Assembly: GCA_002084355.1 (NCBI GenBank) | Contig: NBLL01000044.1 | Span: 1 to 55,007 of the forward strand | DNA length: 55,007 nucleotides | Direction of reading: 5' to 3' | Source of the DNA: Bacteroidetes bacterium 4572_128 | GTDB taxonomy: Bacteria; Bacteroidota; Bacteroidia; Bacteroidales; 4572-128 | Shown: one piece after another, positions 369-52,700 of the stretch | Layout of the letters: each line of letters opens with the position of its first letter | Numbering within the stretch: position 1 is the stretch's first letter | The notes under the pieces: model-generated | What the model was told of the DNA's origin: nothing | The model's input: only the letters and a program-made list of their open reading frames with translations | Databases searched by the model: none | Made by a program: the position numbers and the translations under genes

Positions 369-403
369 TATAATACAAATTTAATTTAAAAATTTGTATT
401 ATA
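369..403. other. Perfect 14-bp inverted repeat (TATAATACAAATTT / AAATTTGTATTATA) with a 7-nt loop. It may be a terminator or operator between the array and the gene starting at 257.
   Basis: Arms 369-382 and 390-403 are exact reverse complements, read directly. Confidence 0.5.
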
Positions 404-557
404 ATTTAAATTTTAATACATTAAAATTTTGACGTTTTTTTGAAAAAAAATTTTTTTTTAATTATAAAAAGTCTTAAAATTTTCACGTTTTTTGAAAAAA
501 ATATTTTTTTTATTTTGAAATTAAAAAATATTAAAATTTTGGACGATTTTTGAAAAA
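404..557 (+). repeat. Tandem A/T array, forward orientation (cores TTTTGACG, TTTTCACG, TTTTGGACGA), about 3 units.
   Basis: Repeated TTAAAATTTTG[G]ACGxTTTTTGAAAAAAA units abut the stop codon of ORF 558..1172. Confidence 0.85.
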
Positions 558-1468
558 TTATTTTTTTTTTGTTTTTACAAAATCAAAAAAATTTTTAATT
601 AAATTGAATTTATAATCAAAATCTTTTTCATCCTCAATATGAAATTGATAATCACCAGTTCCCCAATGTCCTTTTTCTGAAATATCTTTACAAATTTTTT
701 TTGTGTCATAAATTTTAATTTCTTTTTTTCCGAAAATAACTTTTAAAGATTTCTTTAAAAAAATAACACTTAAAAATGAACGATTATTTATTTTAAAAGA
801 AATATAAAGTTTTCTATAAAAGATCTCAATATTTCTATCAAAAGCTAAAATATTTTTTCTTAATTTTTGATACAAATTTTTTAAATTTTCGTTTGTCTTT
901 TTAATATGGTAATCCTCTGTATTTTTAGAATTTTTTACTTTTGATTTTTTAGATACATTTTTTCCTATAATAATTTTTTCATTTTCTTCTTTGATTTTAT
1001 CAAAAATTTGATATTCTTCTCGTTTTTTAAGTTTCTTCACTAATTCTTGGTATTCTATTTCTTTTTTTAAATTATTCAAATTTTTAAAAGAACCAAAAGA
1101 AAAAAAGTTCAAAACTTCCATATTAAAATTTGTTAAATTTTCAATGGATAAAGAATAGATTTTTAAGTACAATTTTTAACAGTGTTTACATAGTTCATTA
1201 ATTGCTCAAAATGTGCTCCATTCAACTCTGTTTCAAATCGTTTCACTTCTATTATAACATTTTGATTGTCTGATTTTAAATTAATATCTAAACGTTTTTT
1301 TCCTTCTGTTTTTTTTTCAAAAATAACACTTTTAAAATCAAAAACATCCCAAGCTAAATTTTTGAAAAGATCTAAGACAAGGCTATTTGTTGTCTGAGTT
1401 TCACAAATATTTTTATTTTCTTTTTTTAATAATTCTATTTTATTTTTTAATTTTCTTAAATTTTCCAT
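558..1468 (-). pseudogene. HsdR_N-like PD-(D/E)xK nuclease domain plus DUF5655-like C-terminal domain protein, split into two frames.
   Basis: ORF 1163..1468 carries D-x(n)-E-x-K (RLDINL...VIIEVKR) followed by FEQLMNY, as in type I HsdR N-terminal domains. ORF 558..1172 ends with a HWGTGDY-containing domain resembling DUF5655. The ORFs overlap by 10 nt in different frames. Adding one base to the T5 run at 1173-1177 joins them (..TVKKLYLKIYSLS..). Confidence 0.5.
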
Positions 1469-30002: not shown

Positions 30003-30965
30003 TACAATTTATTAAAAAAATTTTTTTCAAATTCGTCCAAAATTTTAATATTTTTTAAATTAAAATTAAAAAAAAATTTTTTTCAAAAAACGCCCAAAAT
30101 TTTAATATTTTTTAATTTCAAAATTAAAAAAAAATTTTTTTCAAAAAACGCCCAAAATTTTAATTTTTTTTAATTTCAAAATTAAAAAAAATTTTTTTCA
30201 AAAAACGCCCAAAATTTTAATATTTTTTAATTTCAATTAAAAAAAATTTTTTCAAAAACGTCCAAAAATTTAATGTTTTTTTATTTGAAATTAAAAAAAA
30301 ATTTTTTTCAAAAAACGCCCAAAATTTTAATATTTTTTAATTTCAAAATTAAAAAAAAATTTTTTTCAAAAATTTAATATTTTTTAATTTGAAATTAAAA
30401 AAAATTTTTTTCAAAAAACGTGAAAATTTTAATGTTTTTTTATTTGAAATTAAAAAAAAATTTTTTTCAAAATTCGTCCAAAATTTTAATATTTTTTAAT
30501 TTCAATTAAAAAAAATTTTTTTCAAAAAACGCTCAAAATTTTAATATTTTTTAAATTAAAATTAAAAAAAAATTTTTTTTCAAAATTCGTGAAAATTTTA
30601 ATATTTTTTAATTTCAATTAAAAAAAAATTTTTTTCAAAAATCGTGAAAATTTTAATATTTTTTTATTTGAAATTAAAAATTTTTTTTTCAAAAAACGTG
30701 AAAATTTTAATATTTTTTTATTTCAATTAAAAAAAATTTTTTTCAAAATTCGTGAAAATTTTAATGTTTTTTTATTTGAAATTAAAAAAAAATTTTTTTC
30801 AAAATTCGTGAAAATTTTAATATTTTTTAAATTAAAAAAAATTTTTTTCAAAAAACGCCCAAAATTTTAATTTTTTTTAATTTCAAAATTAAAAAAAAAT
30901 TTTTTTTCAAAAAACGCCCAAAATTTTAATATTTTTTAAATTAAAATTAAAAAAAATTTTTTTTT
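30003..30965 (-). repeat. Largest tandem array, reverse orientation, about 16 units of about 57-60 bp (cores CGCCCAAAA, CGTCCAAAA, CGTGAAAA, CGCTCAAAA).
   Basis: TTTTTTTCAAAAAACGCCCAAAATTTTAATATTTTTTAATTTCAAAATTAAAAAAAAA is repeated with point and homopolymer-length variants across the whole convergent intergenic gap. Confidence 0.93.
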
Positions 30966-32691: not shown

Positions 32692-35438
32692 TTAATTATT
32701 ACAAATTTTAGAGAAATTACAAATTCGACAATTTTCTATACTTTTATTTTGTGAAAAATATTTTTCTTCTGAGAAAATTTCTTTTAAAATATTTTTTAAA
32801 TATTTTTCAAATTCTTCTTTTTCATTTTTCACAAAATCATTAATTTCTTTTTTATTTTTTTCTATAGAAGTTTTTAATTTTTGTTTAAAAATTTCTCTTG
32901 TGTAAAACAAAGACGGCGAGATTAAATTTCTATTATTTTTTATTTGATAAAGATATGAATAAAAAAATATTTGAAATATCTCTTTTTTATTCCTTTTTTC
33001 AGAGGAAAAAATTTCTTCAATTTCTTTGAAATATAATTTATTTTTATCAAAAGAGCCAGTTTTATAATCAATAATTCTAATTAAATTATCTTTTCTATCT
33101 ATTCTGTCTATATTTCCTTGAATATTAATTTTCATATTTTCCAACTTTATTTTTGTAGAAAAATTTTTTTCTAATCCAAGAATTTCAAATGGACATCTTT
33201 CTTTATCAATTTTTAAAATGTAAAATACATATTCTTTCAAAATATTTTTTACAACTCTCAAATCTCCAAAATCATTATTTTCATCAATAGAATACATTTT
33301 GTAAATTGATTTTTTTATCGCATTTTCTATTTTTTTATTTCCTTTTTTAAGAAAAATATCTATATCTTTTTCATAAATTAACTTTTTTGAATTTTCAAAA
33401 TCTTTATATAAAAAATTCATAGTTTCGTGAAGCAATATACCAAATTTCATCTCGTCAATTTCTTCTGATAAAATATTTTAAGTATTTATAGAAGTCGCAG
33501 ATATTGGCTTTTTTTCATTAATTTTAATTAAATCATCAATAATTTTTTTATTTTTTTTAATTTTAATTTCTTTATTTTCTATGAAATTAATATCATAGCT
33601 TAAAACTTTTTTTGAAATTTTAAAATCCGTTTCATACATAATTTGAAAAAGAAAACGACTCATTTCTCCACTATTATTTTCGGAAACAGAATTATTATAT
33701 AATAAAAAAATATTTTTACTTCTTTGCAAAAGTCTATAAAAATTATAAGAAAATAAAGCGTCTTGATTTTCTATGGTAAAAAGTCCAAAAGCACGTCTCA
33801 AATTATACGGAATTACAGAAGTTCCGATGGAGGTTTTTGGTAAAATATTTTCATTGCAAGACAATAAAATAACATTTTCAAAATCAATAACACGAGTCTC
33901 AGAAAGTCCCATAATTTGTAAGCCAAGAAGTGGTTCGCCTTCGAAATCAATATTTTTTGAAGAAATAATTTTTTTTAACAAAGATAAAAAAGTAGAAATT
34001 TCCATAATTTCTTTATCTTTTTTCTTTTCAATTTCTTTATTTAAAATTGTTTGTAAAGACTTTATTGCAAGATAAGTATTATAAATAAATTCTTTTTCTA
34101 AAAGTCCAGCATTTTCATATTTTTCAATATGATTATCAATATTTTCTGCACTTAATTCAGAAAATATTTCTTCCAAAATATTTAATATATATTTGGAAAT
34201 TTCATTAATAGCAATATTTTTTTTAAAAATTTTTTTCAACAAACCATTTAATTGCAATTCATTTTCTTTGAAATAAAATTTTTTGCTTTTTTTAATGAAT
34301 TTTTCAATTTCTAAAGCATTTTCGTAATTATTATTTTTTAAAAATTGATGTTTTAAAATATTTAAAATGTCTTTGTAATAAAAAGAATATTCATTTTTAT
34401 CGGAAATATTCTTTTGTAATTCTATCAAATAATTCACAAAACTATAAACAGGCGTAGATTTCAAAGGGTAAGAAATACTAACATTTATATCTTTTATTTC
34501 TGTGGGCATCGCATAAATTACCGGAATAAGTAAATTTTTATTATTTAAAATAATTGCCGTTTTTTCATTAAAAAAATTTTTATTATCTTTTAAAATTTGA
34601 TGAACAATTTTTGCTTGTCCAACATCAGATGAAGACGCAATAATTTGAATATTTTTTTCATTTTTGAAATTATTAAAATTATTTACATTATCAGAGCTTT
34701 TAAAATTTTTAATATTTTTTCGTAAAAAATACGAAGCTTGATGAAATTTATTATTCAAATAAAATTCGTCATAATCCCAATAAAATTCGGCAATATTTCG
34801 TTTTTTTTTTTTTCAAATTTTATATCAAAATTTTCAATATTTTCAACGAACTCTCTTGAAATCATTCCATCGTAGGCGATATTTTTTTCAAAAAGTTCTT
34901 CCTTAAATTTTTTATAAATTTCATATAGGACTCTCCAAATTTCTATAAAATTTTTTCTATTTTCTCCGTAAGGTTTTGTGTCAAAACTTGTCAAAAACTG
35001 TTTTAATGCTTCTGCTTGTTCTTCGGAAAAATCTATAGAAAAAGTTTTTTCTATATCTTTTAGCTCTTTTATATTTCTAAAAATTGATTTTGCATCTACA
35101 AGATTTTTATCTAATTCGTCAAAATCTTTCAAAAGCATTTCTCCCCATGGATAAAAATCATCAAAATTTTCATTAATTTTTCTTGCTTTTTTATAAATTT
35201 TATGTAAAATAAAAATCAAAGTTAAATCGTCTGCTTTTGAAATCTTAATATTTTTTTGAAAAAAAATATCTAATGTAATAATTTCTGGCAAAAAAATTGG
35301 CTTTTCAATTATTTGTTTTAAATAATTTACAAAAAATAATTTCGCCCTTTTACTCGGTAAAACTATAGCAATTTTATCTAAATTATTGAAATGTTTTTTG
35401 TAAATATTTTCTGTAATTTCGTATAAAAAATTTTTCAT
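32692..35438 (-). pseudogene. AddB-like PD-(D/E)xK helicase-nuclease family protein, broken by a frameshift at a 13-nt homopolymer and by an in-frame TAA.
   Basis: Three consecutive ORFs. The C-terminal one has the RecB-type nuclease motif IDRIDRKDNLIRIIDYKTG and a terminal C..C.....C cluster. The frame changes at the T13 run 34801-34813 (A13 in sense). A TAA at 33480-33478 is in frame between ..SATSINT and NILSEEIDEMKFGILLHE... Confidence 0.7.
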
Positions 35439-38608: not shown

Positions 38609-39289
38609 TTAAACTATTCCTTTCAATAAAGGGACAAAAATAAAATTTCCATATTCTTGTTTTTCTAATTTATTTTTGCTAATTTTAGATATTCTTGTCA
38701 TTATTTGTAAGTTATTATCGCCTACAGGAATAACAAGTTTTCCACCGATTTTTAATTGTTCTAAAAAGTATTTTGGAATATTCTTAGCACCTGCTGTAAC
38801 TAAAATTTTATCAAATGGAGCATAATTAGGCATTCCAAGTGTTCCATCTTTATAAAATAAATTTGCTTTATATCCTAATTTTGTCAATAAATTTTTTGCT
38901 TTTAAATATAAATTTTTATAACGTTCTAAAGTAAAAACTTTTGCTCCCATTTCTGACAAAATTGCTGTTTGATAACCAGAGCCAGTTCCAATTTCTAAAA
39001 TTTTATCTCCAACTTCCACTTCTAATATTTCAGTTTGGAAAGCCACTGTATAAGGTTGAGAAATTGTTTGTCCTGAACCAATGGGAAAGGCTTTATTTTT
39101 ATAAGCAAAAACACTAAAACTGCTTTCCATAAAAAGATGACGAGGAACTTTTTCTATTGCATCTAAAACTTTTTTATCTGAAATTCCTTGTTTTATTATT
39201 TGATTTACAAGCCTTTTTCTAAGTCCTTTATATAAATAATTATCCATTTTAATTTTTTTACAAAGATACAATTTTTTATAAAAAATCAT
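38609..39289 (-). CDS. pcm: Protein-L-isoaspartate O-methyltransferase (likely start at 39247).
   Basis: GQTISQPYTVAFQTEIL and the SAM motif ILEIGTGSGYQTAIL. The MDNYLYKGLRKRL start is more plausible than the ORF-track start. Confidence 0.9.
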   Translation of the reverse strand: MIFYKKLYLCKKIKMDNYLYKGLRKRLVNQIIKQGISDKKVLDAIEKVPRHLFMESSFSVFAYKNKAFPIGSGQTISQPYTVAFQTEILEVEVGDKILEIGTGSGYQTAILSEMGAKVFTLERYKNLYLKAKNLLTKLGYKANLFYKDGTLGMPNYAPFDKILVTAGAKNIPKYFLEQLKIGGKLVIPVGDNNLQIMTRISKISKNKLEKQEYGNFIFVPLLKGIV

Positions 39290-39810
39290 TAAAAAATTGA
39301 CGTTTTTTTGAAAAAATTTTTTTTTTAAATTATAAAAATATTAAAAAATTGACGTTTTTTTGAAAAAAAAATTTTTTTTTAAATTATAAATAATTTAAAA
39401 AATTGACGTTTTTTTGAAAAAAAAAAATTTTTAAATTATAAATAATGTTAAAAAATTGACGTTTTTTTGAAAAAATTTTTTTTTTTAAATTATAAAAATA
39501 TTAAAAAATTGACGTTTTTTTGAAAAAAAAAATTTTTAAATTATAAATAATTTAAAAAATTGACGTTTTTTTGAAAAAAAAAATTTTTAAATTATAAATA
39601 ATTTAAAAAATTGGCGTTTTTTTGAAAAAAATTTTTTTTTAAATTATAAAAAATGTTAAAAAATTGACGTTTTTTTGAAAAAAAAAATTTTTAAATTATA
39701 AAAAATGTTAAAAAATTGACGTTTTTTTGAAAAAAAAAATTTTTAAATTATAAATAATGTTAAAAAATTGGCGTTTTTTTGAAAAAATTTTTTTAAATTT
39801 TTAAATTAAA
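39290..39810 (+). repeat. Tandem array, forward orientation, about 10 units of about 52-57 bp (core AAAAAATTGACGTTTTTTTGAAAAAA).
   Basis: TTGACG occurs at 39297, 39349 and onward. TTGGCG variants occur at about 39611 and 39769. Confidence 0.92.
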
Positions 39811-39827
39811 AAAAACTTATAAAAAAT

Positions 39828-40454
39828 CTAAACTAAGCCTAATTTTTTCATAAAAATTTTATTTCTATTTTTTGCACGTTCTAATAATGTTGAATATTTT
39901 ATTACTTCTGTGTATAATGAGCCATCATCATTTCCATCTTCACCAACAATAATTTTAGATGGTCTAAATAAATAATCAAACTTATATGGAATTTTAAATT
40001 CTCCATCATGTCTTCTCACATCACGTGCATCTATACTTTCTCCAATTAGATAACCATAAAAAGTATTAATTTGAAACTTATCTTGTGAATAATTTAAAAT
40101 TAATGAAGCATAATCATTTATTTGATTTAAAAAATTGGAAACATTTACATGTGGAGCTTTAAATTCAATTATTATACATTTTCCTTCTTCTGGAAAAAGC
40201 AAAATATCTGGTCTTTTTATTTTTCTATTTTCTCCTAATGATAATAAAATTCTCTCTTCTTCTTCTGAAAATTCTTTTCTGAAAATTTTTTGTCCATTAA
40301 TTTTAACATCACAAAGTCTTGCTTCAGAAATACCTTTAAAATAAATAAAATCTTCATTAATTAACCATAAATCACTTTTTTCTGGATCATTCGACGATTG
40401 TTGAAATATTAAATTATGTAATAAATTTTCATCAATATTTCTTTTATTTTCCAT
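39828..40454 (-). CDS. Small PD-(D/E)xK nuclease-fold protein, downstream partner of the GHKL ATPase.
   Basis: 208 aa. KRPD(83)ILLFPEEGKCIIIE(97)FK(99)APHVN is followed by NQINDYASLI, a D...ExK...Q..Y arrangement as in restriction-type and Shedu-like nuclease cores. It lies 20 bp after the upstream gene on the same strand. Confidence 0.65.
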   Translation of the reverse strand: MENKRNIDENLLHNLIFQQSSNDPEKSDLWLINEDFIYFKGISEARLCDVKINGQKIFRKEFSEEEERILLSLGENRKIKRPDILLFPEEGKCIIIEFKAPHVNVSNFLNQINDYASLILNYSQDKFQINTFYGYLIGESIDARDVRRHDGEFKIPYKFDYLFRPSKIIVGEDGNDDGSLYTEVIKYSTLLERAKNRNKIFMKKLGLV

Positions 40455-40474
40455 TTGAAACTTTAATTTTCTAT

Positions 40475-41917
40475 TTAAAATTTTATCAAATAATTCAAGA
40501 ACAATTTTTCGTCTTGCAATATTTTTTCTAATTTTTTAGAATAATCATCAGATTTTGAAGGATTTAAGTTTTCTATTTTTTCTAATTGTTTTTTTAAATT
40601 AGCATCTTGTTTTGCTCTTATTTTTGCATCTATGATATAATAATTTTCTAATATTTTTTCTTCTGTGTCATTAATTTTAATTTTTTCGTGTTTTATAATT
40701 TCGTCATTCAAAAGAAAAAGGTTTTTTAATTCCTTAATTTTATTGATTTTTTCATTATTTCTTTCATTTATTTCGTGATACATTTTCAAAATAATTTCAT
40801 TTGCTTTATTTTCTATATCATTTAATATTATCTCTTCCTTATCAAAACGACCGAGTAATTTTTCAAAATCTTTTTTGAAAACACTTTTTTGGGGAATATT
40901 TAATATTCCTCCTCTTGTATCCGAAATTTTATTATCTATATAATCTCCAGATATTAAAAAAAGATAATTTTTTTCATCTATATGTTCATCATGTTTCAAT
41001 GAATTAAATTTTATTTTTTTTTCAATATCATGTTTCAATGAATTAAATTTTATTTTTTTTTCAATAGTTTCGCCTTTGCTTGTAAATTTTATAGCATTTT
41101 TTATTTTATACTTTTTATTTATTTTGAATGCTTTAATTTGAAAATTTTCTGTATTATTAATTTTTTCAATTTTTCCATCAATGCCAATAACAGAATAATG
41201 AACATTAAAATTTTCTTTTATTTCTGTTTTATTATTTAATTTATCATTACAATAAAGTTCTAATTTTATTGTGGGTAAATTTTCTCTGTGCGAACAAAAA
41301 TATTCTAAATAATGTGCTATTATTTTTTCTTTTAATTCTATTATGTCTAAATTATTATAATAAGAATGAATATCTTTATCAGCTAATAATTCTCTCATTA
41401 TTAATTTAGTACTTGAAAATTCAGCTTTAACTTCAATATTTTGTTTTTCTAAAATCAAAGCATTTTTAGATAAAAAATTTTTTGACATTGATAAAATAAA
41501 ATTTCTTTTTTTAAAGAAAAAATTGTTTTTTTTATAAATGCTTTCATATTCGACTTCTTTAAAAAATTTAATAAATTGTATTCTTCCTGTTCCTTTATTT
41601 TTAAATTTCTTGCTATTATCATCAAGGTTTTTTAATCTGTTAAAATTTTCTTCATTAAACCCTATACCTGTATCTTCAATAATAATTTTTTCTAATTTTT
41701 TGTTTATGAAAAGTTCTTCTTTTATATCAGAAAAAAATAATTGTATTTTTATTTGTCCATTGTTTTTTTTTTCTTCTAATAAAGAAATGGCTTCTAATGA
41801 ATTGGTAAAAGCTTCAAAAATTGCTTGTAATTTTTCATTAGATTTTTTTATTTTTTCAATTCTTCCTCGATAAGATATTCCAGTTCCTCTTATGTAATTT
41901 CCTTTTTTCATTTGCAA
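40475..41917 (-). CDS. GHKL-superfamily ATPase (MORC/Hsp90/MutL-like Bergerat fold) with a long helical, Lys/Glu-rich C-terminal region.
   Basis: 480 aa. N-box FE(35)AFTN(39)SLEA, then IIIED(82)TG(84)IG(86)F (DxGxG), then KNKGTGRIQF (Gly-rich lid). A 39-bp in-frame tandem duplication lies at 40988-41065. Confidence 0.7.
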   Translation of the reverse strand: MQMKKGNYIRGTGISYRGRIEKIKKSNEKLQAIFEAFTNSLEAISLLEEKKNNGQIKIQLFFSDIKEELFINKKLEKIIIEDTGIGFNEENFNRLKNLDDNSKKFKNKGTGRIQFIKFFKEVEYESIYKKNNFFFKKRNFILSMSKNFLSKNALILEKQNIEVKAEFSSTKLIMRELLADKDIHSYYNNLDIIELKEKIIAHYLEYFCSHRENLPTIKLELYCNDKLNNKTEIKENFNVHYSVIGIDGKIEKINNTENFQIKAFKINKKYKIKNAIKFTSKGETIEKKIKFNSLKHDIEKKIKFNSLKHDEHIDEKNYLFLISGDYIDNKISDTRGGILNIPQKSVFKKDFEKLLGRFDKEEIILNDIENKANEIILKMYHEINERNNEKINKIKELKNLFLLNDEIIKHEKIKINDTEEKILENYYIIDAKIRAKQDANLKKQLEKIENLNPSKSDDYSKKLEKILQDEKLFLNYLIKF

Positions 41918-41989
41918 TTTATGTTTAAATTTTTATTGCAAAATTAAAATTTTAATAATAAAAATGAAAATTTTTTTAATCTTTTTTTA

Positions 41990-42232
41990 ATTTTTAAATT
42001 CGTAAAATAATTTCGTTTTTTTGAAAAAAAATTTTTTTTTAATTAAAAAAAAATCATTAAAATTTTGGCGTTTTTTTGAAAAAAAATTTTTTTTTTTTTA
42101 ATTATAAAATATCGAAAAATTGACGTTTTTTTCAAAATATTTTTTTTAAAAAAAATATTAAATTTTGGGCATTTTGGGAAAAAATTTTTTCAATAAAAAC
42201 ATTAAAATTTTGGGCATTTTGGAAAAAAAAAA
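41990..42232 (+). repeat. Tandem array, forward orientation, about 5 degenerate units (cores TTTCGTTTTTTTG, TTGGCG, TTGACG, TTGGGCATTTTGG).
   Basis: Read directly. The last unit runs straight into the truncated esterase reading frame. Confidence 0.8.
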
Positions 42233-42237
42233 ATTAT

Positions 42238-42862
42238 ATATCTTTCAATAAAGATACACTTTTTTATAGGTTTTTAAAACCAAAGAATTTTGACGAAAAT
42301 AAAAAATATCCTTTGGTTATTTTTTTACACGGTGCTGGAGAAAGAGGAAATGATAATTCTAAGCAATTAAGAAATTCTGTAAAAATATTTGCTGAAAAAC
42401 AAGAAAAATATCCATGTTTTGTTTTTGTTCCGCAGTGTCCAAAGAAAAAACGTTGGGTTGAAGTTTCAATTAACTTTTGAAGTTTTAGAAAAACTTTTAA
42501 AAAATAAAAATATAGATAAAAATAGAATTTATTTGACTGGTTTATCTATGGGAGGTTTTGGCACTTGGGATTTCTTATCGAGATTTCCTGAAATTTTTGC
42601 TTGTGGAGTTCCAGTTTGTGGAGGCGGAGATGAAGAAAAAGCAAATTTAATAAAAGATATTCCAATCTGGGCTTTTCACGGAGCAAAAGATAAAGTTGTA
42701 AAAGTTGAACGTTCGCGAAATATGATAAATGCAATAAAAAAATTTACAGAAAATAAATGTAAATATACTGAATATAAAAATTTAGGACATAATTGCTGGA
42801 CGAAAACTTATAATAATGATTTATTATTAGAATGGATTTTTTCTCAAAAAAAAATAAAATAG
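42238..42862 (+). pseudogene. Alpha/beta-hydrolase carboxylesterase, 5'-truncated and frame-disrupted.
   Basis: Own translation from about 42241 gives SFNKDTLFYRFLKPKNFDENKKYPLVIFLHGAGERGNDNSKQL...PQCPKKKRW..*, with the stop at 42478. ORF 42389..42862 in another frame has the nucleophile elbow GLSMGG and the catalytic-His context NLGHNCW. There is no start codon or signal peptide upstream, only array sequence. Confidence 0.7.
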
Positions 42863-44766
42863 ATGAATGATTTTCAAAAAAAATTCCTTGAAGAAGCTAC
42901 AGATTTAATCCTTAATTTAGAGGAAAATATATTAATTCTTGATAAGAATTTTGAAAATAAAGAATTAATAGAAGAAATTTTTAGGACTATGCATTCTTTA
43001 AAAGGTGGTGGTGGAATGTTTGGTTTTGATAAAATCACAAATTTAACTCATAATTTGGAAACTGTTTATGATTTTATTCGTTCAGATAAAGAAAAAGTTA
43101 CAAAAGAATTAGTTAATTTAACATTTCAATCTGTTGATATTTTAAAAATTATTTTAGAAGATAGAAGCTTAGAAATCCAAGAAAATAAAATAAATTATGA
43201 AAATTTAATAAAAAAAATTGATGATTTTACGAAAAAATTTTATTCTAATAATAAAAATGATAATGAAAATAATAACCATATAGAAAATAAAGAATTAAAA
43301 ACTTTTTACATTTATTTTCAAACAAATGAAAAAATTTTCGACAATGGAACAAATCCAATTTTTTTAATGGAAGATTTATCTGAATTTTCCGAAATAAGAA
43401 TTTTTCCAATTTTAAAAAAAATACCTAATTTTGAAAAATTAGATATTTATAAATCTTATATTTCTTGGAATATAATTTTATCAACCAAAGAAGATGAAAA
43501 CCATATAAGAGACATTTTTATTTTTATTGAAAATGAAAATATTATTAAAATAAAAAAAATTTCTGATGATAATTTATTGAAAAATGAAAATTTTATTTCT
43601 CATTTAAAATCAAATGATGAAATTTTTAATTCAGAATTGAAAATTGAATTTTTTGAAATTTTCAAGTATTCGTGTTTCTTCGGAAAAATTGGATAATTTA
43701 GTTAATTTAATAGGCGAATTAGTTACAACTCAGGCAAGTTTAAGTCTTTTTGCGGAACAAAACAAATCAAATAAATTAGATATAATTTCCGAAAATGTAG
43801 AAAATTTAACACGAGAGCTTAGAGATATAGTTTTAGACATTTCACTTTTGCCATTAGATACTTTATTTTTGCGTTTTAAACGACTTTTAAGAGATCTATC
43901 AGAAAATTTTGGCAAAGAAATAAATTTTATTATTGAAGGAGGAGATACAGAATTAGATAAAAGTTTAATTCAAATTTTAAGTGAACCTTTGATGCATATT
44001 TTGAGAAATGCTGTTTCGCATGGAATAGAAAAACCAGAAGAAAGAATTAAAAATAATAAAAATAGAAAAGGAACAATTTTATTAAAATCTTATCATTCCG
44101 GAGCAAATGTTTGCATAGAAATTAAAGACGATGGAAAAGGAATTGATATAGAAAAAATCAAGAAAAAAGCATTTGAAAAAAATCTAATTAATGAAAATAA
44201 TAATTTAAACAATGAAGAAATTTTAAATTTTATTTTTTATCCAAAGAGTTGGTTTAGATGTTGCAAAAAAGAAAATTAATGATGCAAAAGGAGACATAAA
44301 AATTCATACCAAATTCGGCGAAGGAACAAGTTTTATTATAAAAGTTCCGATAACTGTTTCAATAATTGATAGTTTATTATTAAAAATTGATAGCTTACAT
44401 TTTATTGTTCCTGTAATTTCTGTAGAAAAAATAATTTCTATAAAAGAAGAAGATTTGAAAAACAATTTTAATTCTATGCTTATTTATGAAGATAAAAAAA
44501 TACCATTTTTTTATCTAAGAAAAGAATTTAATTTATTAAAAAATATTCCTAAATTACAACAAGGAATTCTTATTTTTAATGAAAAAACTTTATTAATCTT
44601 AATTATTGACGAAGTTTTAGGAGAACACCAGGCAGTTTTAAAACCTATCGGAAAACATTTTAAAAATCAAGAATTTATTTCAGGTGCTTCTATAATGGGA
44701 GATGGAAATATTGCATTAGTTCTTGATACAAATAAAATTTTAAAATATTTTTTAAATAAAAAATAA
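42863..44766 (+). pseudogene. cheA: Chemotaxis histidine kinase CheA, degraded by at least two frame breaks and deletion of part of the ATP lid.
   Basis: Hpt domain with FRTMHSLKGGGGMFGF. Dimerisation and kinase domains with IRVSSEKLDNLVNLIGELV, HILRNAVSHGIE and IKDDGKGID. The frame then changes at about 44238-44250 (..LNFIFYPK / ..RVGLDVAKKKINDAKGDIKIHTKFGEGTSFIIKVPITVSIIDS..), and the usual GFST...SGRG segment is missing. The CheW-like P5 domain runs to 44766. Confidence 0.8.
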
Positions 44767-44767
44767 A

Positions 44768-44815
44768 AAACATTAAAATTTTGGACGATTTTTGAAAAAA
44801 TTTTTTTATTTTGAA
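44768..44815 (+). repeat. Single array unit, forward orientation.
   Basis: CATTAAAATTTTGGACGATTTTTGAAAAAATTTTTTTATTTTGAAATT. Confidence 0.75.
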
Positions 44816-44818
44816 ATT

Positions 44819-44890
44819 CTGTACAATGCGATGTTTTCACTGTACAATTATTATAATAGCGGTGGAAACACCGCCAAAGCGCAAATTATA
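44819..44890. repeat. Two GC-rich hairpin elements head to head (one decayed copy, one with a perfect GCGGTG-GAAA-CACCGC stem-loop).
   Basis: 44826-44850 TGCGATGTTTTCACTGTACAATTATT differs from the 19236 copy by three G/C-to-A/T transitions. At 44859-44874 a perfect 6-bp stem with a GAAA loop is followed by CAAAGCGCA. Confidence 0.65.
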
Positions 44891-44987
44891 AGATTTTTTT
44901 ATTTTATTTTATATATTTTTTTTAAAAAAACTCTATTTTTGAAAAAAAGCAAAATTTTAATATTTTTTGAGAATTTGAAATTATTTT

Positions 44988-45641
44988 ATGAAAGAAATAG
45001 AAGAAAAAACAATAACTTTTAGATTTGCTTCCATTGAAAATTTAAAGGAAGTTATAAATATAAAAGCTATTATAAAAGATGAAAAATTTGATAAATGGTT
45101 TAATTATAATTATAAAATTTCTGATAAGGAAAAAAACATTTTAGAAAATTTAATTAAAAAAAACAGATTGAATTTATCTCTTTATAGCGAACAAAAATTA
45201 GCAATAAAATTTATAGCCCCCATTTTAAATGAAGTAGATTTTAATTTTAAAGATATAAAAGATTGGTATGGAGAAGAGATAAATTGCAAATTAAATGGAT
45301 TTTTATTAAAAGGAAAACCTGATTTAATGATTGCTACAGGAATTTCTTTTCCTAAAAAACCTTATTTTTTTTTACAAGAATATAAAAGATCTATAAATCC
45401 AAAAGGAAATCCAGAATATCAAGTTCTTGCAGGAATGTTAGTAGCAATGCAATTAAATAAAAAAAATAAAATTTATGGAGGCTTTGTTATAGGTAGAATT
45501 TGGCAATTTATTATTCTAGAAAAATTGGAGAATGGAAATTATGAATATTTTGTTTCTTATGCTTTTGATTCTTTAAAATTTCAAGATTTAAAACAAATTT
45601 ATATAAATTTACAAGCAGTTAAATTCTTATTTTGCAAATAA
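44988..45641 (+). CDS. HsdR_N-like PD-(D/E)xK nuclease-fold protein (stand-alone).
   Basis: 217 aa. SEQKLAIKFIAPILNEV.. is followed by GKPDLMIA....YFFLQEYKRS (D...ExK), the layout of type I HsdR N-terminal-domain proteins. Confidence 0.55.
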   Translation: MKEIEEKTITFRFASIENLKEVINIKAIIKDEKFDKWFNYNYKISDKEKNILENLIKKNRLNLSLYSEQKLAIKFIAPILNEVDFNFKDIKDWYGEEINCKLNGFLLKGKPDLMIATGISFPKKPYFFLQEYKRSINPKGNPEYQVLAGMLVAMQLNKKNKIYGGFVIGRIWQFIILEKLENGNYEYFVSYAFDSLKFQDLKQIYINLQAVKFLFCK

Positions 45642-45654
45642 AATTTTTAAATGC

Positions 45655-45835
45655 AAAAAAAAAATTTTTAATTTAAATTCATTAAAATTTTGGACGATTT
45701 TTGAAAAAAAATTTTTTATTTTGAAATTTAAAAATATTAAAATTTTTACGATTTTTGAAAAAAAAATTTTTTAATTTTGAAATCAAAAATCATTAAAAAT
45801 TTGCATTTTTTGAAAAATTTTTTTTTTGAGATAAA
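45655..45835 (+). repeat. Tandem array, forward orientation, about 3 units.
   Basis: CATTAAAATTTTGGACGATTTTTGAAAAAAAA, ATTAAAATTTTTACGATTTTTGAAAAAAAAA and CATTAAAAATTTGCATTTTTTGAAAAA. Confidence 0.85.
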
Positions 45836-45869
45836 ATCTATAATTGTATAAATTTAATAAATATTTTTT

Positions 45870-48124
45870 TTATTTAAATTTTATTTTTAATTTATCTAAT
45901 TCAATATCAATTTCTTCGTCAAAAATTTGTAATAATGGCTCTTTAAATGCCTGAGTTGTTATCATTTTTTCCAAAGTAATTAATAAAGAAGGCAATAATA
46001 ATAAATTTGATAACATTGCAATTAATAAAGTTACAGACAACTGTTCCGCCAAAAGTTGAAGCGGAAAAAATTCCAAAACCGAAAAATAAAACTATCGAAG
46101 TGTAAATCATGCTAAAGCCAGTTTCTCTCAAAGACGTTATTATTGAGCTGTGAATATTCCATTCGGTAAATTTTAATTCTTGCCTATATTTTGAAAGAAA
46201 ATGTATGGTATCATCAACGGAAATTCCAAAAGCAATACTAAAAACAAGAACAGTAGAAGGTTTTATAGAAATCCCAAAATAACCCATTAAAGCAGCAGTT
46301 AAAACCAAAGGGAATAAATTTGGAATCAAAGAAATTAAAACCATACGCCAAGAAGAAAACATAAAAGCCATAAAAACAGCAATTAAACTTATCGCAATAA
46401 ACAAACTTGTAAATAAATTTTTAATTAAATAAGTTGTTCCTTTTACAAAAACCACACTTGAACCTGTAATAATCGTTTTAAATTTATTCTTATCAAAAAT
46501 AGAATCTAAATCTTTATGAATATTTTTTTCTAAATTTCGCATTCCTACCGTTCCAATGTCAGCAACTTTATAACTTATTCGTGTAATTTGTCCAGTGCTG
46601 TCTATGAAATTTCGCAATAAATTTTTTTTATTTTTATCTTTTGAAACATAAGATAAAATAAAATTTTTTTCAGAATTACTTGGCAATTTATAATGTTTTT
46701 CTTTTCCATTGAAAAATGCTTGTCTGGAAAATTTTATTCCTTCTACCAAAGAAAGCGGTTTAGAAATTGATTTATACTTTTTTAATTCTTCTTGTAATTT
46801 TTCTATCTTTTTTAAAGTGGAACTTTTTATAACACCTTTTTTTCTTTTTGTGTCTATGACAATTTCCAAAGGCATAACTCCATAAAAATGTTTTTCAAAA
46901 AATTTTAAATCTAAATAAATTGGGTCATCTTTTGGAATATCATCAACAATAAAACCTGTAGTTTTCATTTTCATTATGCCAATTATTGCAAATATGAAAA
47001 TTAAAAAACTCATATAATAAACTGTTTTTCTATGATTTTCTGTTATGAAAACTAATTTTTTTATAATTTTAGCAATTAAATTATTTTTCAAATGTTTCGT
47101 TTGATTTTTATTTGGCGGCTCTAATGAGAAAAATATTATCGGAATTAAAATTAAAGAAAATAAAAAAATCCCTAATATATTTAAAGAAGCAATAATTCCA
47201 AATTCTTGTAAAATTTCACTTGATGTTAAAATAAAAGTTGCAAAGCCAGAAGCGGTTGTTAAATTTGTTAGGAAAGTTGCGTTCCCAATTTTTTGAACCA
47301 TTCGTACTAATGCTTTTGCTTGGTTTCCGTGTTTTCTGTATTCTTGATGATATTTATTTATCATAAAAACAAAATTCGGAATACCAATAACAATTAATTA
47401 CAATCTTGAAAGACCTAAAAAATAAATATAAAATAGTTGCAGTAACTAAAACAGCTAAAATAATAAACATATTTAGCTCTTTTTTTACTTTTTTTGCAAT
47501 TAAAGTCCTTGTGTAAGGAAGTCCAGAGAAATGAATTTCATCATTATATTTTTTTGCAAAAGCTCTTGCAAAATATTCTATACTATCAACAACAGCCTCT
47601 CGTTCTTTTGAATCAAATTTTTTTTTATTGACCGTTACAGCCATTAAATAAGCATTTTCGTTATAAAGTATTTTTTTATAAAATGGCAAACTATATAAAA
47701 CAGTTTTTATACTATCTAATTCTTTCTGAGTTTTTATTTCATTATTTATGATTTTTTTTAACTCGAACTTTTTTAATTTACTGTTTTTTTTCAAATTGTA
47801 AACATTGCCAACAGAAACTAAATTTTCTATTCCTTTTAGGTCTGTTATAAGTTCTCCGAGTTTTATCCATTCTTTAAATTTTTCTAATTCAAATAAATTT
47901 TCATCTTTTATTCCAATAACAATAATATTTGCATCATCTCCAAATAAGTTTTTGAAATTTTGATAGTTCAAATATGCAATGTCTTTTTCTGGAAGTAAAG
48001 CTGCATATTGATAAGATAATTTTACGAAAGTAGCTCTATAAGCCATAAAAATCGTAAAAATAAAAATTGCAGTTATTAAAAGTAATTTATTTCGTAAAAT
48101 AAAAATTGAAATTTTTGTCCACAT
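45870..48124 (-). pseudogene. MMPL/RND-superfamily exporter (COG1033-like), broken into three frames.
   Basis: ORFs 47354..48124, 45943..47364 and 45870..46076. At about 47395-47410 the sequence reads ..FFRSFKIVI then, in another frame, IVIGIPNFVFMINKYHQEY, so several TM segments expected between these blocks are absent. A second break at about 46040-46055 (..TFGGTVV / SVTLLIAMLSNLLLLPSLLITLEK) is not at a homopolymer. Confidence 0.75.
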
Positions 48125-48959: not shown

Positions 48960-49275
48960 ATTTAAAACAAAAATTTTGGAGAATTTTGAAAAAAATTTTT
49001 TATAAAAACATTAAAATTTTGGGGAATTTTGAAAAAAATTTTTTTTATAAAAGCATTAAAATTTTGGGGAATTTTGAAAAAAATTTTTTTTATAAAAACA
49101 TTAAAATTTTGGAGAATTTTGAAAAAAATTTTTTATAAAAACATTAAAATTTTGGGGAATTTTGAAAAAAATTTTTTTTATAAAAACATTAAAATTTTGG
49201 GGAATTTTGAAAAAAATTTTTTGAAAAAAATTTTTTTTATAAAAACATTAAAATTTTGGGGGATTTTGAAATTTT
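48960..49275 (+). repeat. Tandem array, forward orientation, about 6 units of about 55 bp (core CATTAAAATTTTGG[G/A]GAATTTTGAAAAAAA).
   Basis: Read directly. The 83-aa track ORF 49029..49280 is just a translation of these units. Confidence 0.9.
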
Positions 49276-52369: not shown

Positions 52370-52700
52370 TTTTAAAAGTTTAAAAAATTTTTTCAAAAAA
52401 AACGTAAATTTTCATGATTTTTTATATTTAAAAAAATATTTTTTTTTTTTTTCAAAAAACGCCAATTTTTTATGATTTTTAATAATCATAAACTTATGAT
52501 GAATAATTGTGCGGTGAAAACACCGTAAATACGACAACTTTTGTTTATTACTATTTTTTTAATTTTGATGTCGAAATGTTAAAAAAAAAATTTTTCAAAA
52601 AACGTCCAAAATTTTAATATTTTTTAATTTCAAATTAAAAAATATTTTTTTAAAAAAACGCCCAAAATTTTAATATTTAAATAATAATGTGCGAAAAACA
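52370..52700 (-). repeat. Degenerate array units, reverse orientation, interleaved with GC-rich hairpin elements.
   Basis: TTTTCAAAAAAAACGTAAATTTTCATG, TTCAAAAAACGCCAATTTTTTATG, TTTTTCAAAAAACGTCCAAAATTTTAATA and AAAAAAACGCCCAAAATTTTAATA. Confidence 0.8.
52499..52537 (-). repeat. GC-rich hairpin element (reverse orientation relative to the 19224 copy).
   Basis: ATGAATAATTGTGCGGTGAAAACACCGTAAATACGACAA. The first 27 nt are identical to the reverse complement of 19238-19264. A partial further copy lies at about 52686-52715 (GTGCGAAAAACACCGCAATGCGCAT). Confidence 0.75.

What the first reader, a model, noticed from the sequence alone, without database searches (positions are those of the whole stretch)
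39828..41917. Candidate two-gene defence cassette: a GHKL (MORC/Hsp90-like) ATPase plus a small PD-(D/E)xK nuclease, bracketed by repeat arrays
Two co-oriented ORFs 20 bp apart form an isolated operon between arrays 39290-39810 and 41990-42232. The first (480 aa) shows the Bergerat-fold motifs in the right order: E35-x3-N39, D82-x-G84-x-G86, and a Gly-rich KGTGR lid. These are followed by about 350 aa of Lys/Glu-rich, probably helical sequence. The second (208 aa) has a compact D83...E97-x-K99 core followed by Q..Y, as in restriction-type and Shedu-like nuclease domains. Comparative genomics (the 'paraMORC' proposal) has predicted that GHKL ATPases linked to nucleases are restriction-like systems. 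I cannot match this particular short-nuclease architecture to any named, experimentally characterised defence system. The neighbours are housekeeping (pcm) or decayed genes, so the pair looks like an inserted accessory module.
Basis: partly seen in the sequence, partly recalled or inferred. Interest (0 to 1): 0.72.

Follow-up and report, generated by a model that had tools for sequence, protein, structure and literature searches.

The report
One GHKL-nuclease gene, split by deletion
The supposed two-gene defence cassette is a single, already described kind of gene (an ATPase fused to a DNA-cutting domain, probably anti-phage) that looks like two genes only because this database record lacks 58 bases present in every other assembly of the same organism.

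Summary
But they are two halves of one gene. Every homologue found is a single protein of about 700-740 aa: 80 of 80 full-length GTDB loci, and all full-length members among 339 representatives at E<=1e-30. A contig from the same population is identical to the window at every aligned base over 8.1 kb and encodes an intact 710-aa protein. Within the gene the window differs by a 30-bp deletion, a 39-bp tandem duplication and a frameshifting 58-bp deletion. Similar record-specific deletions break the neighbouring cheA, esterase and AddB-like genes, so this is most likely an assembly artefact. The protein has a GHKL ATPase, an Hsp90/MutL/MORC-type middle domain, a helical region and a C-terminal PD-(D/E)xK nuclease. 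That is the paraMORC3 architecture of Iyer et al. 2008. VcSduA of Vibrio cholerae, a protein with the same domain order, is an experimentally validated anti-phage nuclease. In 22 of 80 genomes the gene lies inside a type I restriction-modification operon (hsdM-hsdS-gene-hsdR). It lacks the Shedu signature domain DUF4263 and has no PADLOC match. The flanking repeat arrays occur throughout the window. Verdict: an ordinary, probably artefactually broken, new member of a known kind.

The parts
39828..41911 (-). One disrupted gene for a GHKL ATPase-PD-(D/E)xK nuclease fusion. The intact form is 2133 bp / 710 aa.
   Evidence: P0002 (710 aa) covers both window ORFs colinearly. L001 is identical to the window at every aligned base apart from indels. 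All 80 related GTDB loci carry a single ORF of about 700-737 aa, except two cut by a contig end.
40475..41911 (-). N-terminal ORF (478 aa from the ATG): GHKL ATPase, transducer/middle domain and most of the helical region. It ends in 15 out-of-frame codons and a premature stop.
   Evidence: Full-length model, pLDDT 85.6. Foldseek hits to Hsp90/TRAP1, SMCHD1, MORC4 and MutL span about 350-480 columns.
41660..41815 (-). GHKL motif I (E35-x3-N39, codons 41815-41801) and motif II (D82-x-G84-x-G86, codons 41674-41660).
   Evidence: Read directly. The columns E33, N37, D80, G82 and G84 (P0002 numbering) are invariant in 37 sequences.
41216..41217 (-). Lesion 1: junction of a 30-bp in-frame deletion that removes LSDFPKIDKT.
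   Evidence: The lost segment contains invariant P237 and nearly invariant D235.
40988..41066 (-). Lesion 2: a perfect 39-bp tandem duplication (2.0 copies) that adds IEKKIKFNSLKHD.
   Evidence: TRF finds period 39 with 100% matches. The duplication is absent from L001 and from P0002-P0004.
40522..40523 (-). Lesion 3: junction of a 58-bp frameshifting deletion (loss of EVNELVQSIPVQNKTALAQY). It creates the stop at 40475-40477 and so the apparent second gene.
   Evidence: The lost segment contains invariant P470, L477 and Y480. There is no microhomology at the junction.
39828..40454 (-). C-terminal ORF (208 aa): the complete PD-(D/E)xK nuclease domain, called as a separate gene only because of lesion 3.
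   Evidence: Model pLDDT 88.6. The best fold matches are McrC, EndoMS/NucS, SfsA, R.BspD6I and SduA.
40158..40208 (-). Nuclease catalytic core, D83 ... E97-x-K99 in ORF2 numbering (D585, E599, K601 of the intact protein).
   Evidence: Invariant in 54 sequences and in 37 sequences.
39276..39787 (.). Downstream intergenic tandem array (52-bp unit, 9.8 copies). It is not part of the gene, and not specific to it.
   Evidence: Arrays with the same unit are found at at least 13 sites in the window.
41982..42229 (.). Upstream intergenic tandem arrays (45-55-bp units). This record lacks a further 113 bp at 42228.

Best explanation
Window 39828-41911 (minus strand) is one gene for a protein of about 710 aa. 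The domain order is: N-terminal GHKL (Bergerat-fold) ATPase, an Hsp90/MutL/MORC-type middle (transducer) domain, a helical region, and a C-terminal PD-(D/E)xK endonuclease. In this database record the gene carries three lesions: a 30-bp deletion, a 39-bp tandem duplication and a 58-bp frameshifting deletion. The last lesion makes it read as a 478/480-aa ORF plus a 208-aa ORF. The lesions are most likely errors of this assembly. Less likely, they are real and the gene is a dead pseudogene in this one strain.

The intact protein belongs to the paraMORC3-type class of GHKL-nuclease fusions and most likely acts as a single-protein anti-phage/anti-plasmid nuclease. The proposed mechanism is as follows. 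ATP binding at E33/N37/D80xGxG drives dimerisation of the GHKL domains, as in MutL, GyrB, Hsp90 and MORC. The middle and helical domains form a clamp that engages DNA. The ATPase cycle then licenses cleavage by the D585/E599/K601 site.

Shown here: the gene is one unit; the domain identities; conservation of both catalytic sites; the defence and type I R-M genomic context. Inferred by analogy with GHKL enzymes and with VcSduA: dimerisation, DNA clamping, ATP-gated cleavage and phage targeting.
For: One gene. Every hit to the 480-aa ORF other than the window's own record is a longer single protein, nearly all of 700-730 aa. P0002/P0003/P0004 are 95/94/88% identical to the 480-aa ORF and run through both ORFs. 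All 80 GTDB loci hold one ORF. Full-length representatives cover profile positions about 2-708.

Lesions specific to this record. L001 shows 0 mismatches over 8.1 kb and 10 differences in length, one of them only the overhang at the contig end: 8 deletions and the 39-bp duplication. The deletion junctions carry 0-6 bp of microhomology. P0002 is encoded identically in ENA and NCBI assemblies. Two further window-only deletions, at 33479 and 34807, are absent from all independent contigs covering those sites, five and four respectively; these include a scaffold whose name points to the same sequencing project. The lost segments contain invariant residues.

Domains. Pfam HATPase_c, HATPase_c_3 and HSDR_N match 21, 20 and 27 of 37 members. 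The AF2 model has pLDDT 85.6. Foldseek matches TRAP1/Hsp90, SMCHD1, TopoVI-B, MORC4, MLH1 and PMS2. The nuclease model matches McrC, NucS and SduA. E33, N37, D80, G82, G84, N105, G107, G109, R110, T168, E511, D585, E599 and K601 are invariant.

Defence context. HsdS is the immediate upstream neighbour in 16-17 of 80 loci, with stop-to-start gaps of -14 to +18 bp. 22 of 80 loci lie in hsdM-hsdS-gene-hsdR operons. Other neighbours include N6_N4 methylases, AAA_15/OLD, Fic, RhuM and YhcG.

Homology and literature. The family is homologous over its full length to a 672-aa gammaproteobacterial family embedded in type I R-M operons (hhalign probability 99.9%, E 4.6e-31). PMC2292703 defines paraMORC3. 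In PMC12137116, the E27A and K557A mutants of VcSduA lose phage defence.
Against: No member of this particular family has been tested. PADLOC has no model that matches it. The Shedu signature domain DUF4263 is not detected. In this genome the neighbours are housekeeping genes (pcm, esterase, cheA), not a defence island. The nuclease fold matches are weak (best E 0.0097). I could not inspect reads, so 'artefact' versus 'real deletion' rests on the pattern of differences alone. The 39-bp perfect duplication and the lack of microhomology at the junctions are unusual for simple de Bruijn graph collapse.
Confidence: 0.82

Rival explanations
1. One reading: a true two-gene operon in which a separate GHKL ATPase and a small stand-alone PD-(D/E)xK nuclease work together.
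For: Two ORFs with their own start codons lie 20 bp apart. One JGI contig shows a similar split of 466 aa + 228 aa, 36 bp apart.
Against: 80 of 80 GTDB loci and all full-length representatives are single ORFs. The boundary is a 58-bp deletion that removes invariant P470, L477 and Y480 and leaves an out-of-frame tail. Otherwise identical DNA from other assemblies encodes the fusion. C-terminal-only ORFs on long contigs are frameshifted or truncated remnants.
Confidence: 0.03
2. The lesions are real: this strain carries a freshly inactivated pseudogene, as part of genome-wide deletional decay, rather than an assembly artefact.
For: Defence genes are often lost, and decayed copies of this family exist elsewhere (L095, L096). 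The deletions lack the repeat flanks expected from assembly-graph collapse, and one lesion is a clean tandem duplication.
Against: There are 9 internal length differences and no substitutions over 8.1 kb. Two more window-only deletions are missing from all independent contigs covering those sites. The lesions hit essential-looking genes (cheA, an AddB-like nuclease, an MMPL transporter) at intervals of about 1-1.5 kb. This spectrum is not what natural divergence produces.
Confidence: 0.12
3. The protein is a bona fide Shedu (type I-D, GHKL N-terminal domain), that is, an orthologue-level relative of VcSduA rather than a parallel family.
For: It has the same domain order. PMC12137116 states that proteins with the domain organisation of VcSduA were annotated as paraMORC3. 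A 672-aa Vibrionaceae relative of our family has its catalytic Glu at position 27 and its nuclease Lys at 556, against E27 and K557 in VcSduA. E. coli SduA appears among the nuclease fold matches (rank 10).
Against: Pfam DUF4263 matches 0 of 37 family members and 0 of 3 proteobacterial relatives at E<=0.1, whereas HSDR_N matches 27 of 37. No PADLOC SduA model matches. The SduA fold match is weak (E 0.12, probability 0.18). The V. cholerae 672-aa relatives lie in trmE-integrated type I R-M islands, not at the VSP-II locus of VcSduA.
Confidence: 0.3
4. The protein is a housekeeping DNA-repair or chromosome-maintenance factor (MutL/MORC-like), not an immune nuclease.
For: GHKL plus nuclease is also the MutL architecture. 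Most loci (58 of 80) have no conserved partner. In this genome the neighbours are housekeeping genes. Iyer et al. raised this possibility for stand-alone paraMORC3.
Against: The distribution is patchy and crosses phyla: Bacteroidota, Campylobacterota, Spirochaetota, Acidobacteriota, Pseudomonadota, and plasmids. Tandem paralogues and swapping of the nuclease module occur. Pseudogenes are frequent. The gene is embedded in R-M operons and mobile islands. The closest experimentally tested analogue is anti-phage (PMC12137116).
Confidence: 0.08

Closest known systems
paraMORC3 family (Iyer, Abhiman & Aravind 2008, PMC2292703)
   Same: GHKL ATPase plus an S5-type middle domain plus a C-terminal restriction-endonuclease-fold domain with E-D-ExK motifs. 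Prevalent in Bacteroidetes and Proteobacteria. Sporadic, laterally mobile distribution. Often stand-alone, without conserved neighbours. All of this matches.
   Different: I could not compare with their seed sequences. They reported no conserved neighbourhood for the nuclease-bearing subset, whereas here 22 of 80 loci are embedded in type I R-M operons.
VcSduA, the GHKL-type Shedu (type I-D) of Vibrio cholerae WASA lineage (Adams et al. 2025, PMC12137116; classification in Gu et al. 2023, 10.1101/2023.08.10.552793)
   Same: A single polypeptide with an N-terminal GHKL ATPase (motifs I-IV), a clamp-like middle domain and a C-terminal PD-(D/E)xK nuclease. Similar size and spacing of catalytic residues. 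In VcSduA both activities are required for direct (non-abortive) phage protection.
   Different: The nuclease of VcSduA is reported as DUF4263. This family gives no DUF4263 or PADLOC Shedu match and scores instead against HSDR_N.
672-aa 'ATP-binding protein' of Gammaproteobacteria (e.g. WP_269598986.1 of Salinivibrio; 96% identical copies in V. cholerae, 86-91% identical in Klebsiella and E. coli)
   Same: Homologous over its full length (hhalign probability 99.9%, E 4.6e-31, 588 columns). Same position after hsdS in type I R-M operons.
   Different: Only about 21-24% identical and about 40 aa shorter. It is carried on trmE-integrated mobilisable islands. It too is uncharacterised.
MutL / MORC / Hsp90 / topoisomerase VI-B GHKL ATPases
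   Same: The Bergerat fold plus transducer domain is the best structural match. ATP-driven N-terminal dimerisation is the expected engine.
   Different: No MutL C-terminal endonuclease domain, no MORC-specific motif or CW/coiled-coil partners, and no Top6A partner. The nuclease here has the PD-(D/E)xK fold and is fused in cis.
Genes embedded in type I R-M operons (PrrC/RloC, TgvAB, RhuM, YhcG, Schlafen/AlbA_2 proteins)
   Same: It occupies the same hsdS-hsdR slot, and those hitchhiker genes are found in the same loci.
   Different: The domains are unrelated. No evidence yet of functional coupling to HsdMSR.

Membership tests
GHKL ATPase superfamily | Bergerat-fold motifs I (ExxxN), II (DxGxG), the ATP-lid Gly-rich loop and motif IV (Thr) | tested here: met
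   E33, N37, D80, G82, G84, N105, G107, G109, R110 and T168 are invariant in 37 sequences. HATPase_c scores 31.5 and 37.7 bits against a cut-off of 26.4 in P0049 and P0050, but below the cut-off (about 20 bits) in the window copy. Foldseek E 2.4e-10 to TRAP1.
GHKL ATPase superfamily (MutL/MORC/Hsp90 type) | A transducer / S5-like middle domain directly after the ATPase domain | tested here: met
   Foldseek alignments of about 350-480 columns cover the N+M domains of TRAP1, the SMCHD1 ATPase module, MORC4 ATPase-CW and the 40-kDa MLH1/PMS2 fragments. The nearly invariant S288-K289-x-E291 is a candidate gamma-phosphate sensor (inference). This rests on a predicted model.
PD-(D/E)xK nuclease superfamily | The (E)...D...ExK catalytic constellation on an alpha/beta core | tested here: met
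   E511, D585, E599 and K601 are invariant. HSDR_N matches 27 of 37 members, best E 1.6e-6. The top fold matches are all nucleases of this fold, but weak (best E 0.0097).
paraMORC3 (Iyer et al. 2008) | GHKL + S5 + a conserved C-terminal RE-fold domain with E-D-ExK; found in Bacteroidetes and Proteobacteria; sporadic distribution | tested here: met
   Architecture and motifs. Taxon spread. Description of the family.
paraMORC3 (Iyer et al. 2008) | Sequence-level clustering with the published seed members | not testable with these tools
   Seed sequences and gi numbers are not on hand.
Shedu (SduA) | DUF4263 (PF14082) nuclease domain | tested here: not met
   0 of 37 members and 0 of 3 proteobacterial relatives match at E<=0.1. 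No PADLOC SduA hit at E<=1. E. coli SduA 8ps5 is only rank 10, with E 0.12 and probability 0.18.
Shedu type I-D / VcSduA | Homology to VcSduA (A1552VC_00276) | not testable with these tools
   The sequence is not retrievable, because Supplementary Table 7 is truncated. The only indirect hint is E27/K556 in a Vibrionaceae relative against E27/K557 in VcSduA.
   One ORF in 80 of 80 loci. The split here is a 58-bp deletion.
Catalogued defence systems (PADLOC-DB v2.0.0) | A significant match to any system model | tested here: not met
   No hits for either ORF. For eight full-length members there were only chance-level hits to Cas4 and a methyltransferase model (E 0.002 or weaker).
Accessory gene of a type I R-M operon | Conserved position between hsdS and hsdR, same strand, minimal spacer | tested here: inconclusive
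   True in 22 of 80 loci, with gaps of -14 to +18 bp. Also true in Salinivibrio and V. cholerae relatives. Not true at the window locus or in the other 58 loci.

The most novel reading that the evidence does not exclude
The ~710-aa Bacteroidota-centred family and its 672-aa gammaproteobacterial sister may form a distinct branch of GHKL-nuclease immune proteins that no defence catalogue yet covers. Its nuclease is HSDR_N-like rather than DUF4263. In about a quarter of genomes the gene is translationally coupled to hsdS inside type I R-M operons. It might therefore act together with, or as a back-up for, the type I enzyme. For example, it could be an ATP-gated second nuclease that uses HsdMS-dependent methylation status, or that fires when HsdR is blocked by anti-restriction proteins.
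Probability: 0.25. Interest if true: 0.5.

Novelty: new member of a known kind. Interest (0 to 1): 0.2.

Why it matters
There are three practical points.

1. This public MAG contig carries deletions found only in this record, about every 1-1.5 kb. Any 'pseudogene', 'split gene' or 'genome decay' reading from this window is therefore unsafe.

2. The gene adds a large uncharacterised family to the GHKL-nuclease class. The family has 339 representatives at E<=1e-30, mostly in Bacteroidota, and PADLOC misses it. The only tested example of the class that I found is VcSduA.

3. The recurrent hsdM-hsdS-gene-hsdR arrangement is a testable hint of cooperation with type I restriction.

None of this changes current understanding of bacterial immunity.

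Tried and rejected
- A PADLOC scan of both ORFs and of eight full-length homologues found nothing meaningful. An NCBIfam scan of the two ORFs found nothing meaningful either.
- A profile search of PDB sequences gave no hits with A1. With A3 it gave only weak histidine-kinase HATPase_c hits.
- tblastn against phage genomes found no match. The BFVD fold search returned only generic GHKL proteins such as RIIA and topoisomerases.
- I tried to obtain the VcSduA sequence or its hit list from the supplements of PMC12137116, but the table is truncated. No supplement is held for the Shedu preprint. Direct homology to VcSduA therefore stays untested.
- I asked whether the V. cholerae 672-aa relatives are VcSduA. 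Their context is a trmE-integrated type I R-M island, not VSP-II next to GrwAB, so probably not.
- I checked whether the deletions are slippage between direct repeats. They are not: junction microhomology is 0-6 bp.
- I checked whether the flanking repeat arrays mark a mobile cassette. This was rejected, because the same arrays fill many spacers of the window and are also present around the intact gene in L001.
- I checked whether short C-terminal homologues on long contigs are natural stand-alone nucleases. They are frameshifted or truncated remnants.
Full report
**1. What is in the window**

Two ORFs lie on the minus strand: 40475..41917 (480 aa from a TTG) and 39828..40454 (208 aa), 20 bp apart. 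The ATG at 41911 gives the 478 aa of the NCBI protein B6I24_05100. On their own the two ORFs score below Pfam's cut-offs: HATPase_c E 1e-3 and HSDR_N E 6e-5. They hit nothing in PADLOC and nothing meaningful in NCBIfam.

**2. They are one gene**

- Every homologue of the 480-aa ORF other than the window's own record is a longer single protein, nearly all of 700-730 aa.
- The closest homologues, P0002/P0003/P0004 (95/94/88% identity, 710 aa), run colinearly through both window ORFs.
- Relative to P0002 the window lacks LSDFPKIDKT, carries a duplicated IEKKIKFNSLKHD, and lacks EVNELVQSIPVQNKTALAQY.
- After that last gap, the reading frame of the second ORF resumes exactly where P0002 continues (…IARRKIVLELFDKILNRKLKFQMENKR…).
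- A scan of one genome per GTDB species returned 80 loci. All of them carry a single ORF, of 697-737 aa wherever it is not cut by a contig end.
- An exhaustive HMM search found 339 representatives at E<=1e-30. The full-length ones cover profile positions about 2-708.
- Short C-terminal homologues on long contigs are frameshifted (L095) or 5'-truncated (L096) remnants. One JGI contig shows a 466+228-aa split.
- So splits occur sporadically, at varying positions. They are not a conserved architecture.

**3. The break is peculiar to this record**

- Contig L001 (ENA ERZ2433796) aligns to window 39820-47520 with zero mismatches over 8.1 kb.
- Apart from an overhang at the contig end, the window differs in nine places. 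Eight are deletions (104, 17, 41, 80, 47, 113, 30 and 58 bp). One is a perfect 39-bp tandem duplication.
- The deletion junctions show 0-6 bp of microhomology.
- In L001 the MMPL transporter (cut by the contig end), CheA (674 aa), the esterase (254 aa) and the GHKL-nuclease (710 aa) are uninterrupted. In the window each of them is hit by a deletion.
- P0002 is encoded identically in NCBI assemblies from other samples.
- To the left of the gene, the window lacks about 53 bp at 33479 and about 58 bp at 34807. All independent contigs that cover those sites have this sequence (five and four respectively). They include a scaffold whose name points to the same sequencing project, and in them the 952-aa PDDEXK_1 gene is intact wherever it is fully covered.
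- Nine length differences and no substitutions is not a natural divergence spectrum. The lost segments also include invariant residues: P237 in the 30-bp deletion and P470/L477/Y480 in the 58-bp deletion.
- I conclude that an assembly or scaffolding artefact is most likely (about 85%), and a genuine recent pseudogene is the alternative. Only read mapping can decide.

**4. The repeat arrays are not a bracket**

TRF finds arrays with the same 52-57-bp AT-rich unit in at least 13 intergenic spacers across the window. They also flank the intact gene in L001. They are a genome-wide property of the spacers, not cassette boundaries.

**5. What the intact protein is**

- In an alignment of 37 full-length members, the following are invariant: E33/N37 (motif I), D80xG82xG84 (motif II), N105-K-G107-x-G109-R110 (the ATP lid), T168 (motif IV), and in the C-terminal part E511, H515, D585, E599-x-K601 and Y617. 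Q613 is at least 90% conserved.
- Pfam across the family: HSDR_N 27/37, HATPase_c 21/37, HATPase_c_3 20/37, DUF4263 0/37. HATPase_c exceeds its gathering score in the most distant members.
- The AlphaFold2 model of P0002 has pLDDT 85.6.
- Its first 400 or so residues match TRAP1/Hsp90 N+M domains, the SMCHD1 ATPase module, topoisomerase VI-B, MORC4, MLH1 and PMS2 at E 2e-10 to 6e-8. This means a GHKL domain plus a transducer domain.
- Residues about 360-505 are helical.
- The model of the 208-aa ORF has pLDDT 88.6. Its matches are weak (best E 0.0097) but are all PD-(D/E)xK nucleases: McrC, EndoMS/NucS, SfsA, R.BspD6I and E. coli SduA at rank 10.

**6. Genomic context**

- The family is mostly in Bacteroidota. 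It also occurs in Campylobacterota, Spirochaetota, Acidobacteriota, Desulfobacterota and others, and distant relatives sit on proteobacterial plasmids and chromids. No phage copy was found.
- Among the immediate neighbours of the 80 loci, HsdS is the commonest (16-17). HsdR-type helicase-nucleases, DNA methylases, AAA_15/OLD, Fic, RhuM and YhcG also occur.
- 22 of 80 loci sit in type I R-M operons, typically hsdM-hsdS-gene-hsdR. The distance from the hsdS stop to the gene's start is -14 to +18 bp.
- A 672-aa gammaproteobacterial family occupies the same slot. Examples are Salinivibrio and V. cholerae trmE-integrated islands with the order hsdR-AAA_15-hsdM-hsdS-gene-RhuM-MobI…int.
- That family is homologous to ours over its full length: hhalign probability 99.9%, E 4.6e-31, 588 columns.
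- At the window locus itself the neighbours are pcm, an esterase and cheA, so the gene stands alone here.

**7. Comparison with what is known**

- Iyer, Abhiman and Aravind (2008; PMC2292703) defined paraMORC3 as GHKL + S5 + a C-terminal RE-fold domain with E-D-ExK motifs. They found it prevalent in Proteobacteria and Bacteroidetes, often stand-alone. That describes this protein.
- Gu et al. (2023 preprint) place GHKL-bearing proteins in Shedu type 1D.
- Adams et al. (2025; PMC12137116) showed that VcSduA (GHKL + DUF4263) protects against T1-like phages and vibriophage X29. The E27A (ATPase) and K557A (nuclease) mutants are inactive, and protection appears direct rather than abortive.
- Our family therefore works, most probably, like VcSduA. 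Membership in Shedu as defined by DUF4263 was tested and not met. Homology to VcSduA itself could not be tested.
- A Vibrionaceae relative has E27 and K556, a suggestive match in dimensions only.

**8. Mechanism: shown and inferred**

Shown here:
- one polypeptide;
- intact, conserved ATPase and nuclease sites;
- an Hsp90/MutL-type N+M module;
- R-M and mobile-island context;
- modular evolution: P0004 is 94% identical to P0002 over residues 1-545, but over the nuclease core 546-680 it resembles P0034/P0036, and tandem paralogues occur in L004.

Inferred from GHKL enzymology and from VcSduA:
- ATP-driven N-terminal dimerisation closes a clamp on DNA and licenses PD-(D/E)xK cleavage of invading DNA;
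- how self DNA is spared is unknown;
- the hsdS coupling suggests, but does not show, cooperation with type I R-M.

**9. Verdict**

The locus is a probably artefactually split copy of a paraMORC3-type GHKL-nuclease gene, that is, a new and untested member of a known kind. Interest is low (0.2). The residual novelty lies in the uncatalogued family and its embedding in type I R-M operons.

Noticed in passing
window 33479, 34807, 40522, 41216, 42228, 42467, 43665, 44245, 46037, 47398: The window record lacks segments of 17-113 bp that are present in all other assemblies of the same population. It is otherwise base-for-base identical to them. These gaps break cheA, an esterase, an MMPL transporter, a 952-aa PDDEXK_1 (AddB-like) gene and the GHKL-nuclease. 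'Decayed genes' in this window are therefore probably assembly artefacts.
   Followed up: yes
window 388-570, 1514-2092, 13066-13579, 17165-17663, 19422-19542, 23751-24238, 30014-30964, 39276-39787, 41982-42229, 45663-45817, 48970-49271, 52557-52680: AT-rich tandem arrays with a related unit of about 52-57 bp (core …TTTTCAAAAAAACGCCAAAATTTTAA…) fill many intergenic spacers. They are conserved in related contigs (L001, L087). Their function is unknown.
   Followed up: partly
window 42863-44766 (+); L001 2865-4889: A complete CheA histidine kinase (674 aa; Hpt, H-kinase_dim, HATPase_c and CheW domains) is encoded in a MAG labelled Bacteroidetes. In the window it appears as several ORFs because of the deletions.
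   Followed up: no
L004 9995-12160 and 12486-12831: A related Bacteroidales MAG carries two tandem paralogues of the gene (84% and 98% identical to P0002). P0004 is a mosaic: residues 1-545 are 94% identical to P0002, but the nuclease core 546-680 is only about 50% identical to P0002 and 70% identical to P0034/P0036. This points to swapping of the nuclease module.
   Followed up: partly
L092 1119-11071 (V. cholerae GCA_037154475.1); L084 75-4789 (Salinivibrio): A 672-aa gammaproteobacterial sister family has 96% identical copies in V. cholerae and 86-91% identical copies in Klebsiella, E. coli and Proteus. It sits after hsdS in type I R-M operons on trmE-integrated mobilisable islands, in the order hsdR-AAA_15-hsdM-hsdS-gene-RhuM-MobI…integrase. 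It is annotated only as 'ATP-binding protein'.
   Followed up: partly
L095 2967-5092; L096 3803-5080: Decayed copies of the family exist in other genomes. One is frameshifted with N-terminal remnants in other frames, and one is 5'-truncated. This fits the frequent loss of a dispensable accessory gene.
   Followed up: yes
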